A DNA stretch of 931 bases from Escherichia coli (GTDB taxonomy: Bacteria > Pseudomonadota > Gammaproteobacteria > Enterobacterales > Enterobacteriaceae), in assembly GCF_003334255.1 (NCBI RefSeq), contig NZ_QOWU01000183.1; one strand, 5' to 3'. This document shows positions 3-931 of the stretch, one piece after another. Made by a program: the position numbers and the translations under genes. The notes beneath the pieces are model-generated. The model did no database searches. It was not told the DNA's origin and was given only the letters and a program-made list of their open reading frames with translations. The first letter of the stretch is position 1, and every line of letters starts with the position of its first letter.

Positions 3-931
3 ATGGCAATGATGGCGGATCGCTACTTCACCACCAAAAAGGACGGCAAAACTTACTACATTAAACTTCATGATCCGCGCCTGATGCGTGCGATGAAGAA
101 CATGGGGCCGGAAACCAGTAACGCCGTAATCCGTACGCTGGGGAAAGTTAACCGCTTCCTGGCAACGGTGAACACGTCGTATAACCCGGAATTTCTGGTC
201 AGTAACTTCATCCGTGACGTGCAGACTGCGGTGATGAACCTGAAGGCTGAGCAGGGAAGGAGCGACGGTAAACTGAAAGAGCTGGATAACTTATCCGCGC
301 TGGCTGTGGTGAAAGACAGCCGTTCCGCCATGTCAGCCGTATACGCCAGTCTGCGGGGTAAAACCCTCACGGGCAAAGGCGCACAGTGGCAGAAAGTGTG
401 GAAAGAGTTTGTTGAGGACGGAGGTAAAACCGGCTGGTTTAACATGGGTGACCTTGAGGGCCAGCAGAAGGAAATGGATCGCCTTGTGTCGCTGGCGAAG
501 GGCGGATGGAAAGGCCAGAGTATCGGTGCATGGCATTCGTTCCTGAACCTGGTCGAGGATGCCAACGGCGCGGTTGAAAACGCTCTGCGTCTTTCTGCCT
601 ATAAACACGCCCGTGATGCCGGTTTGTCACGCCAGCAGGCGGCGTCTCTTGCCAAAAACATGACGGTGAACTTTAACCGTCGTGGTGAGCAGGGGATGCT
701 GATGAACTCGCTGTACATGTTTGCCAACGCCAGCATTCAGGGGACCGCAAACCTGGTGAGAACGCTCGGACATCTTAATGGCGACGGGCCGTTACCGGAG
801 CGCCTTCGCTGGAAGAATCTCAATGTACCGCAGAAAATCGTGCTTGCAGCTGTGGGAGCGGGTTATCTGCTTGGCTCGCTTAACCGCAGTGTGGCGGGTG
901 AGGATGATGACGGGGTTAACTGGTACGACAA
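3..931 (+). CDS. Partial CDS for a hypothetical protein of unknown function (309 codons visible; 3' end truncated by the window, 5' end undetermined). Translation begins MAMMADRYFTTKKDGKTYYIKLHDPRLMRAMKNMGPETSNAVIRTLGKVNRFLATVNTSYNPEFLVSNFIRDVQTAVMNLKAEQGRSDGKLKELDNLSALAVVKDSRSAMSAVYASLRGKTLTGKGAQWQKVWKEFVEDGGKTGWFNMGDLEGQQKEMDRLVSLAKGGWKGQSIGAWHSFLNLVEDANGAVENALRLSAYKHARDAGLSRQQAASLAKNMTVNFNRRGEQGMLMNSLYMFANASIQGTANLVRTLGHLNGDGPLPERLRWKNLNVPQKIVLAAVGAGYLLGSLNRSVAGEDDDGVNWYD...
   Basis: Seen in sequence: + frame 3 is open from nt 3 to the window end with no stop, while + frame 1 stops at nt 10-12 (tga) and + frame 2 stops within the first ~90 nt (taa). Codon choice is typical of highly used enterobacterial codons, and the translated protein has a plausible globular composition. 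The supplied ORF track omits it, presumably because it has no stop inside the window. Function is not assigned: I cannot run a homology search and do not recognise a diagnostic motif. Confidence 0.85.
   Translation, partial: MAMMADRYFTTKKDGKTYYIKLHDPRLMRAMKNMGPETSNAVIRTLGKVNRFLATVNTSYNPEFLVSNFIRDVQTAVMNLKAEQGRSDGKLKELDNLSALAVVKDSRSAMSAVYASLRGKTLTGKGAQWQKVWKEFVEDGGKTGWFNMGDLEGQQKEMDRLVSLAKGGWKGQSIGAWHSFLNLVEDANGAVENALRLSAYKHARDAGLSRQQAASLAKNMTVNFNRRGEQGMLMNSLYMFANASIQGTANLVRTLGHLNGDGPLPERLRWKNLNVPQKIVLAAVGAGYLLGSLNRSVAGEDDDGVNWYD

What the first reader, a model, noticed from the sequence alone, without database searches (positions are those of the whole stretch)
897..914. Acidic patch GEDDDG immediately after the hydrophobic segment
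Three consecutive Asp preceded by Glu (ggt gag gat gat gac ggg) sit just downstream of the hydrophobic stretch. This could be a flexible acidic linker or a metal-binding loop, though the window ends too soon to see its context.
Basis: seen in the sequence. Interest (0 to 1): 0.15.

Follow-up and report, generated by a model that had tools for sequence, protein, structure and literature searches.

The report
Conserved acidic turn in giant phage protein
The GEDDDG patch is real and strongly conserved: it is an ordered acidic turn in the shared tail-end module of a giant protein that Shiga-toxin-type phages carry inside their heads, not a floppy linker, but what it does is still untested.

Summary
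Bases 897-914 read ggt gag gat gat gac ggg in the true reading frame. They encode residues 2470-2475 of a 2,794-aa "LPD38 domain-containing" polyvalent protein of a 933W/phi24B-like prophage. This protein is the ortholog of 933W L0134 and of phi24B gp47, which is found in virions.

Composition alone does not make the patch remarkable: a run of four or more acidic residues appears in 58% of shuffles of the whole protein. Conservation does. In 151 sequences at 37-74% identity to the query:
- D2472 is Asp in 95% and D2474 in 97%.
- Positions 2471 and 2473 are acidic in 91% and 98%.
- G2475 is Gly in 84%.

G-x-D-D-[DE] persists in Vibrio, Bacillus, Ralstonia, Burkholderia and Bacteroides phages at 22-39% identity. 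It decays only at the family fringe.

AlphaFold2 models it as a confident tight loop (pLDDT 90-94) after a helix, two residues before the Pfam LPD38 boundary. So "flexible linker" is rejected. "Metal-binding loop" stays plausible but unproven: the strict Dx[DN]xDG calcium motif is not met here and is met in only 22% of relatives. The preceding hydrophobic stretch is not of transmembrane grade. The module has no solved structural relative. This is a known, annotated family, so interest is modest.

The parts
3..931 (+). Internal fragment (residues 2172-2480) of a 2,794-aa virion-associated polyvalent protein gene (WP_174147770, 'LPD38 domain-containing protein'; ortholog of 933W L0134 and phi24B gp47).
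   Evidence: Frame 3 is open throughout. The DNA is 100% identical to phage GER2 and to the E. coli SCU-104 prophage. The annotated CDS is L001:5490-13874.
174..230 (+). Motif TSYNPEF...NFIRDVQTA (residues 2229-2247), containing the invariant N2239 and D2243. It lies in the part of the C-terminal module that Pfam does not annotate.
   Evidence: These are the most conserved columns in the 151-sequence alignment and are invariant.
573..602 (+). Motif VENALRLSAY (residues 2362-2371) with the invariant E2363 and R2367.
663..752 (+). Motifs TVNFNRRGE (residues 2392-2400) and FANASIQGTAN (residues 2411-2421). These were the peptide patterns that recovered 526 viral-contig relatives.
825..896 (+). 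Predicted alpha-helix 2446-2469 (VPQKIVLAAVGAGYLLGSLNRSVA). Its uncharged core is only 15 residues long, bracketed by the conserved Q-K and N-R pairs.
   Evidence: AF2 helix with pLDDT 85-94. Kyte-Doolittle 1.35 over 19 aa. Hessa sum +5.8 kcal/mol for the best 19-mer, so it is not of transmembrane grade.
897..914 (+). Acidic turn G2470-E-D-D-D-G2475. The family consensus is [GDE]-[ED]-D-[DE]-D-G.
   Evidence: Sequence. Conservation. Ordered loop closed by an E2471...N2477 bridge, pLDDT 90-94.
918..931 (+). First residues (NWYD, then a partial K codon) of the Pfam LPD38 match (residues 2477-2682). They begin the conserved [WFY][YWF]-D-K-[VI]-P...K-E-R-N continuation of the motif.
   Evidence: Pfam LPD38, E 1.5e-48, model positions 2-189. 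Conservation.

Best explanation
SHOWN.
- The patch is an ordered, strongly conserved acidic turn. It joins a long Ala/Gly-rich helix (2446-2469) to the start of the LPD38 region.
- It sits inside a C-terminal module of about 900 aa (roughly residues 1885-2794).
- That module is the one part shared by thousands of otherwise variable giant polyvalent proteins of podophages, and it always lies at their C-terminus.
- The protein is orthologous to phi24B gp47, which is present in virions and has been proposed to be an ejection protein.

INFERRED.
- A cluster of four negative charges is kept on a rigid exposed loop. Asp is specifically required at 2472 and 2474 and Gly at 2475. Conserved acidic residues follow downstream (D2480, E2488).
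- Such a site most likely holds a divalent cation (Ca2+ or Mg2+), working like a Dx[DN]xDG-type loop.
- The cation would lock the helix onto the following beta-hairpin and stabilise, or trigger, the folded state of the delivery module when the protein leaves the capsid.

The patch is not a linker, and the preceding helix is a packed core helix rather than a membrane anchor.
For: Identity and context:
- Searches place the window in the giant CDS.
- Searches give the architecture LPD5, LPD1, MuF_C, LPD38.
- (bioRxiv 10.64898/2026.04.10.717836) reports phi24B gp47 in virions by proteomics. One search shows 98.4% identity between this C-terminal 623 aa and phi24B.
- One search finds 8,840 representative clusters at E<=1e-3; in the 150 listed (37-74% identity) the match ends at the C-terminus of the protein.

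Conservation:
- D2472 95%, D2474 97%, acidic at 2471 in 91% and at 2473 in 98%, G2475 84%.
- G-x-D-D-[DE] is invariant in five distant phages (22-39% identity).
- an independent set of 76 IMG/VR loci gives the same picture (D2472 in 68 of 77).

Order:
- Searches are two AF2 models (pLDDT 83.6 and 86.4; pTM 0.77 and 0.84). Both show helix, then a 5-residue loop closed by a bridge, with local pLDDT 90-94.

Metal-like pattern:
- Asp rather than Glu is demanded at the alternate positions, followed by Gly.
- 33 of 151 relatives carry the full Dx[DN]xDG motif in this register.
- Rigden et al. 2011 (PMC3123361) state that such motifs lie in ordered regions, take a further acidic ligand from later in the sequence, and can act in folding.
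Against: - The strict Dx[DN]xDG motif is not met in this protein or in 78% of relatives (position 1 is Gly).
- No Pfam metal-binding family matches.
- Some subclades delete the D-G turn and keep only an acidic run (DEEE, GEDE) or carry EENPxTG. One locus and Bacillus phage Page lose the patch altogether. What is universal is therefore negative charge, not a particular chelating geometry.
- Hints of covariation with conserved basic residues (D2472A with K2487L/T; R2466Q with D2480S) suggest salt bridges could do the job without a metal.
- AF2 does not model ions.
Confidence: 0.45

Rival explanations
1. A purely electrostatic, structural clasp with no metal. The acidic loop forms salt bridges and Asx-turn hydrogen bonds with the conserved basic residues around it (R2466, K2481, K2487, R2489), or it docks onto a basic partner surface such as the portal, capsid interior or another subunit.
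For: - The segment 2465-2490 holds 4 conserved basic and 6 conserved acidic residues.
- Covariation hints: all 4 sequences with D2472A also differ in the K-E-R triad, with K2487 changed to L or T in 3 of them. R2466Q goes with D2480S in about 10 sequences.
- Subclades keep the charge but not the D-G turn.
Against: - The covarying sequences probably form one or two clades, so they represent few independent events.
- A specific requirement for Asp over Glu at 2472 and 2474 is more typical of chelation or tight turns than of surface salt bridges.
- Four adjacent acidic residues outnumber the nearby basic residues.
Confidence: 0.3
2. A juxtamembrane acidic patch. On this reading the hydrophobic helix is a (latent) membrane-inserting segment of the ejected protein, and the acidic turn sets its topology or acts as a pH/cation trigger for insertion, as in colicin or diphtheria-toxin T domains.
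For: - The protein has been proposed to be an ejection protein forming a trans-periplasmic conduit.
- The LPD38 region holds several low-charge, Gly/Ala-rich helices (2446-2469, 2515-2528, 2534-2548, 2560-2581).
- The module is all-alpha and has no solved relative.
Against: - The uncharged core is only 15 residues in this protein and is bracketed by the conserved K2449 and N2465-R2466.
- The best 19-mer gives a Hessa sum of +5.8 kcal/mol and a Kyte-Doolittle value of 1.35, both below transmembrane thresholds.
- AF2 packs the helix confidently inside a globular model with pTM 0.84.
- The next hydrophobic helix is about 45 residues away, so this is not a hairpin.
Confidence: 0.1
3. Catalytic acidic residues of an unrecognised Mg2+-dependent enzyme (DxD-type site) within the C-terminal module.
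For: - Invariant polar residues are spread through the module (N2239, D2243, E2363, R2367, N2394, N2490).
- The DxD pattern is strongly conserved.
Against: - Iyer et al. 2017 list seven LPDs as potentially enzymatic, and LPD38 is not one of them.
- No enzyme family is found by Pfam, NCBIfam, PHROGs, PDB sequence search or fold search.
- The motif is lost or shortened in some subclades while the rest of the module is kept.
- The module is the constant part of proteins whose effector domains vary, which fits a delivery or structural role better.
Confidence: 0.06
4. A flexible acidic linker between domains, or a chance acidic run.
For: - It sits exactly at the N-terminal edge of the Pfam LPD38 match.
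- An acidic run of this length is expected by chance in a protein this long (58% of shuffles).
Against: - Position-specific conservation of 95-97% across 151 plus 76 diverged sequences.
- No length variation in the main clade.
- pLDDT 90-94 with a defined turn in two models.
- The flanking residues on both sides (N-R before; W-Y-D-K-V-P and K-E-R-N after) are equally conserved.
Confidence: 0.03

Closest known systems
phi24B gp47 (vb_24B_48) and 933W L0134, the giant virion protein of Stx-converting Traversvirus phages
   Same: Orthologs. They are 97.4-98.4% identical over the C-terminal 623 aa, and the GEDDDG codons are identical. They share the same Pfam architecture of LPD5, LPD1, MuF_C and LPD38. 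The gene holds the same position after the tail-fibre region; in this E. coli prophage it is the last gene before the host gene yfdC.
   Different: Nothing material. The window comes from a GER2-like prophage variant, and there is one V/A difference in the preceding helix. No paper read here mentions the acidic motif.
Pfam LPD38 (PF18857), defined by Iyer et al. 2017 for phage-type polyvalent proteins
   Same: The protein matches LPD38 at E 1.5e-48 over residues 2477-2682. [quoted passage not shown]
   Different: The acidic turn and its helix lie just outside the Pfam boundary (the model starts at residue 2477), yet they are as conserved as the domain itself. The approximately 590 aa upstream (about 1885-2476) are conserved together with it and have no Pfam family.
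Bcep22 gp75, JC1 gp69 and Ralstonia phage 'DarB-like antirestriction' giant proteins
   Same: They share the same C-terminal module at 26-29% identity, with G-M-D-D-D-K in place of G-E-D-D-D-G. JC1 gp69 was found in virions by mass spectrometry (PMC9144972). PHROG 10089 'DarB-like' matches residues 2355-2682.
   Different: The N-terminal effector arrays differ. The 'DarB-like' label comes from domains that were not detected in this protein. The label says nothing about the C-terminal module.
Dx[DN]xDG calcium-binding loops (EF-hand-like linear motif; Rigden et al. 2011, PMC3123361)
   Same: Shared features are Asp at alternate positions followed by Gly, an ordered loop, and conserved acidic residues later in the chain. 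22% of family members carry the full motif in this register.
   Different: Position 1 is Gly here and in 66% of relatives. Positions 2 and 4 are also constrained to be acidic, which the calcium motif does not need. No bound metal has been shown, and there is no Pfam EF-hand, dockerin or Excalibur match.
Podovirus ejection (internal core) proteins such as T7 gp14/gp15/gp16 and P22 gp7/gp16/gp20
   Same: The proposed role is similar: packaged in the head and released ahead of, or with, the DNA (own knowledge for T7 and P22). The module is mostly alpha-helical.
   Different: No sequence or fold similarity was detected to any solved structure, phage ejection proteins included. This is an analogy only.

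Membership tests
Phage-type polyvalent protein with LPD38 (Iyer et al. 2017; Pfam PF18857) | Significant match to the LPD38 profile | tested here: met
   PF18857, E 1.5e-48, model positions 2-189 of 189, residues 2477-2682.
Phage-type polyvalent protein with LPD38 (Iyer et al. 2017; Pfam PF18857) | Several unrelated domains in one very large polypeptide | tested here: met
   The protein is 2,794 aa with LPD5 (1051-1200), LPD1 (1361-1440), MuF_C (1750-1839) and LPD38. It also has two HExxH motifs.
Phage-type polyvalent protein with LPD38 (Iyer et al. 2017; Pfam PF18857) | Encoded among late/virion genes of a (pro)phage | tested here: met
   The gene follows the tail-fibre gene and is the last prophage gene before host yfdC. 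It holds the same position in PhiR5_2, Bcep22 and Gamede.
Phage-type polyvalent protein with LPD38 (Iyer et al. 2017; Pfam PF18857) | Packaged in the virion and delivered to the host | not testable with these tools
   The orthologs phi24B gp47 and JC1 gp69 were detected in virions by proteomics. Delivery into the host has not been shown for any member.
Dx[DN]xDG calcium-binding loop | Linear motif D-x-[DNST]-x-[DN]-G | tested here: not met
   The window protein reads G-E-D-D-D-G, and no register within 2467-2482 fits. The motif is met in 33 of 151 relatives.
Dx[DN]xDG calcium-binding loop | Ordered loop with Gly at position 6 and a further acidic ligand later in the sequence | tested here: inconclusive
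   pLDDT is 90-94 and the loop is closed by a bridge. G2475 is 84% conserved, D2480 87% and E2488 96%.
Dx[DN]xDG calcium-binding loop | Bound Ca2+ | not testable with these tools
   This needs ITC, crystallography or structure prediction with ions.
Transmembrane helix with charged flank | About 19 or more consecutive uncharged hydrophobic residues with favourable insertion energy | tested here: not met
   The uncharged core is 15 residues. Kyte-Doolittle over 19 aa is 1.35. The Hessa sum is +5.8 kcal/mol, and the median over the family for the 15-mer core is +0.94.
Intrinsically disordered acidic linker | Low positional conservation, variable length, low model confidence | tested here: not met
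   Searches show the opposite on all three counts in the main clade.
P1 DarB antirestriction protein | Methyltransferase and helicase domains (own knowledge of P1 DarB) | tested here: not met
   No such Pfam domains appear anywhere in the 2,794 aa. Only the PHROG label 'DarB-like' matches, and it does so through the shared C-terminal module.

The most novel reading that the evidence does not exclude
The C-terminal module of about 900 aa (the Pfam-blank region plus LPD38) would be a previously unrecognised, fold-novel translocation or 'ejectosome' domain common to thousands of podophage giant proteins. Its conserved acidic turn would be a Ca2+ or pH switch. In the capsid or tail channel the module would be unfolded or held. 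On reaching the cation-rich periplasm the turn would bind Ca2+ and drive refolding or membrane engagement, in the way RTX toxins fold on meeting calcium.
Probability: 0.1. Interest if true: 0.6.

Novelty: already known. Interest (0 to 1): 0.22.

Why it matters
The giant polyvalent protein takes up about 14% of the genome of the commonest Shiga-toxin-converting phages, and its organisation in the capsid is an open question. Its C-terminal module is the only constant part across thousands of such proteins. It has no known function and no solved structural relative. A short, invariant, surface-type acidic turn gives a precise and cheap handle for mutagenesis (D2472A/D2474A). That experiment would ask whether the module is needed for packaging, ejection or folding, and whether cations control it. 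The patch itself is a small feature of an already annotated family, so the finding refines annotation rather than revealing a new system. It also shows that the Pfam LPD38 boundary cuts through a conserved motif, and that a conserved domain upstream is unannotated.

Tried and rejected
- Chance: shuffling shows the run is unremarkable by composition at protein scale. The case therefore rests on conservation.
- PDB by sequence, with a single sequence and with a profile: nothing significant.
- NCBIfam: only CLCA_X, below its cutoff and elsewhere in the protein. PHROGs: families of unknown function, plus a 'DarB-like' label.
- Transmembrane reading of the hydrophobic stretch: rejected on length and insertion energy.
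- Strict Dx[DN]xDG membership: rejected for this protein.
- DNA-level purifying selection among close Stx phages: uninformative. The patch codons are identical and only the flanks vary.
- RNA family scan and repeat scan of the window: nothing found.
- The phiXacm4-11 preprint does not mention a giant protein.
- The search for related loci with the most divergent alignment (A5) failed for lack of conserved stretches. Alignment A2 worked.
- I could not obtain model coordinates. Solvent exposure, side-chain geometry and contacts of the loop were therefore not examined.

Full report
**1. Observation**

The window reads ggt gag gat gat gac ggg at bases 897-914. Frame 3 is open across all 931 bases, while the other five frames hold only short ORFs. 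The window is 100% identical to Escherichia phage GER2 and to prophages in several E. coli genomes. It is 90-98% identical to 185 other phage records, mostly Stx-converting.

In E. coli SCU-104 the window lies inside an 8,385-nt CDS (L001:5490-13874). This CDS is annotated 'LPD38 domain-containing protein' and is 2,794 aa long. The window encodes residues 2172-2480, and GEDDDG is residues 2470-2475.

**2. Is it more than chance?**

EDDD is the only run of three or more acidic residues in the protein. However, with 13.8% Asp+Glu, a run of four or more acidic residues turns up in 58% of shuffles of the whole protein and in 2% of shuffles of the window's residues. Composition alone therefore proves nothing.

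**3.

A full HMMER search of 1.84 billion representatives with residues 2172-2794 found 8,840 proteins at E<=1e-3 and 4,172 at E<=1e-30. In the 150 best (37-74% identity) the match always ends at the C-terminus of a protein of up to 5,181 aa. Aligning them gives:

| Position | Residue in window | Conservation in 151 sequences |
|---|---|---|
| 2470 | G | Gly 66%, Asp 25%, Glu 7% |
| 2471 | E | acidic 91% |
| 2472 | D | Asp 95% |
| 2473 | D | acidic 98% |
| 2474 | D | Asp 97% |
| 2475 | G | Gly 84% |

Both flanks are conserved too:
- Q2448-K before the helix and N2465-R2466 after it.
- Then [WFY][YWF]-D2480-K2481-[VI]-P2483, followed by K2487-E2488-R2489-N2490.

More distant relatives were checked in three further sets.
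- Five phage homologs at 22-39% identity keep G-x-D-D-[DE] without exception. They are Vibrio 252E42.2, Bacillus Dartukuta, Ralstonia Gamede, Burkholderia Bcep22 gp75 and Bacteroides BF1-TP2.
- An independent set of 76 IMG/VR viral contigs (31-98% identity) agrees: Asp at 2472 in 68 of 77 and Asp at 2474 in 59 of 77.
- At the fringe the motif erodes:
  - One subclade reads EENPxTG.
  - Another deletes six residues but keeps DEEE or GEDE.
  - Vibrio phage 1.232.O has NDDREE.
  - Bacillus phage Page and locus L081 have lost the patch.

So negative charge is the most universal property, and the D-x-D-G turn characterises the main clade.

**4. Structure**

AlphaFold2 was run on residues 2172-2794 (46-sequence alignment; mean pLDDT 83.6, pTM 0.77). 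It was run again on the whole module, residues 1870-2794 (51 sequences; pLDDT 86.4, pTM 0.84). The two models give the same local picture:
- a helix over 2446-2469;
- then a five-residue loop D-D-D-G-V closed by a bridge between E2471 and N2477;
- then a short helix and a beta-hairpin.

The 10-residue blocks covering the patch have pLDDT 90-94. This is not a disordered linker.

The helix in front has an uncharged core of only 15 residues. Its best 19-mer Kyte-Doolittle value is 1.35 and its Hessa sum is +5.8 kcal/mol. By the usual criteria it is a packed Ala/Gly-rich core helix, not a transmembrane segment.

**5. What the protein is**

Pfam finds LPD5 (1051-1200), LPD1 (1361-1440), MuF_C (1750-1839) and LPD38 (2477-2682). 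The acidic turn therefore sits two residues before the Pfam LPD38 boundary.

PHROG profiles and the consensus of my alignments show that conservation starts near residue 1885. The roughly 590 residues upstream of LPD38 hold the most invariant residues of all (N2239, D2243, E2363, R2367, N2394) and have no Pfam family.

Published context:
- Iyer et al. [quoted passage not shown] It is not among the seven LPDs they thought enzymatic.
- A 2026 preprint detected the ortholog phi24B gp47 in virions by proteomics. The authors could not see it in cryo-EM maps and proposed that it is an ejection protein.
- JC1 gp69, a Bcep22-type relative, was also detected in virions.

No solved structure resembles the module by sequence or by fold.

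**6. Mechanism**

*Shown:* the patch is a conserved, ordered acidic turn in the constant C-terminal module of a virion-associated giant protein.

*Inferred:* four adjacent negative charges on a rigid loop point to a cation site working like a Dx[DN]xDG calcium loop. The supporting features are Asp (not Glu) demanded at alternate positions, a following Gly, and conserved acidic residues downstream. According to Rigden et al. 2011, such loops occur in ordered regions, take an extra acidic ligand from later in the chain, and can govern folding.

*Membership fails:* the strict motif is absent from this protein and from 78% of relatives, and no Pfam metal-binding family matches.

*Main rival:* a metal-free salt-bridge clasp or a docking surface. 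It is supported by covariation hints (D2472A with K2487L/T; R2466Q with D2480S) and by the subclades that keep only the charge. These hints may reflect only one or two evolutionary events.

*Minor rivals:* a juxtamembrane trigger and a catalytic DxD site are possible but less likely. Linker and chance are rejected.

**7. Novelty and verdict**

The gene, its family and its Pfam domains are already in the databases and the literature, and the window is identical to annotated sequences. What is added here is small but concrete:
- The acidic run is a conserved, structured motif.
- It lies just outside the Pfam LPD38 boundary.
- The hydrophobic stretch is not a membrane anchor.
- The flexible-linker reading is wrong.

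The function remains untested. I rate the interest as low to modest.

Noticed in passing
window 174-230, 573-602, 663-752 (residues 2229-2421); whole region about L001:11142-12917: The most invariant residues of the C-terminal module (N2239, D2243, E2363, R2367, N2394; motifs TSYNPEF/NFIRDVQTA, VENALRLSAY, TVNFNRxGE, FxNASIQG) lie in about 590 aa upstream of LPD38 that have no Pfam family. This is a widespread conserved domain that appears undescribed, and its predicted fold has no PDB relative.
   Followed up: partly
L001:9339-9353 and L001:10140-10154 (residues 1284-1288 and 1551-1555 of the giant protein): There are two HExxH zincin-like motifs (HEWFH and HEIIH). The first lies in the region that matches NCBIfam CLCA_X below its cutoff (152 against 260 bits). 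They may be the processing peptidases that Iyer et al. postulate for polyvalent proteins.
   Followed up: no
L001:8130-8159 (residues 881-890): A perfect (Pro-Val)x5 repeat, PVPVPVPVPV, sits in a low-complexity stretch between the N-terminal region and LPD5. It is probably a rigid spacer.
   Followed up: no
Residues 1750-1839 of the giant protein (MuF_C, PF18819): The phi24B preprint calls MuF-C a metallopeptidase domain that degrades peptidoglycan. Iyer et al. 2017 describe MuF-C as a PBECR (RNase-like) domain. The two sources disagree, and the peptidoglycan role looks unsupported.
   Followed up: partly
L001:1107-2213: An Ail/Lom-family outer-membrane protein gene and a Hok/Gef toxin gene sit between the tail-fibre genes and the giant gene. 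These are moron-type cargo within the late region.
   Followed up: no
records MG710528 (GER2) and LC616031-LC616078; RefSeq E. coli genomes: The gene is not annotated at all in GER2 or in many Stx2a phage records. In RefSeq, near-identical proteins are named either 'LPD38 domain-containing' or 'LPD5 domain-containing'. In Min27 the CDS annotated over this region starts about 5.7 kb later than in 933W. In phi24B a small antisense ORF (vb_24B_52c) is annotated inside it.
   Followed up: no
Loci L044, L046, L048, L049 (loop deletion); L039-L041, L045, L092 (EENPxTG); L081 and phage Page L011 (patch lost): Subclades of the family have remodelled or lost the D-G turn while keeping the rest of the module. 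They are natural variants that could be used to test what the turn is for.
   Followed up: partly
Residues 2466/2480 and 2472/2487 (window 885-887, 927-929, 903-905; residue 2487 lies beyond the window): Apparent covariation: R2466Q goes with D2480S, and D2472A goes with K2487L/T. This hints at salt bridges around the acidic turn. Phylogenetic independence was not assessed.
   Followed up: partly
window 68-565, minus strand: A 165-aa TTG-initiated ORF runs antisense to the giant CDS. Nothing supports it as a gene, and it is most likely an artefact of the long open frame opposite.
   Followed up: no
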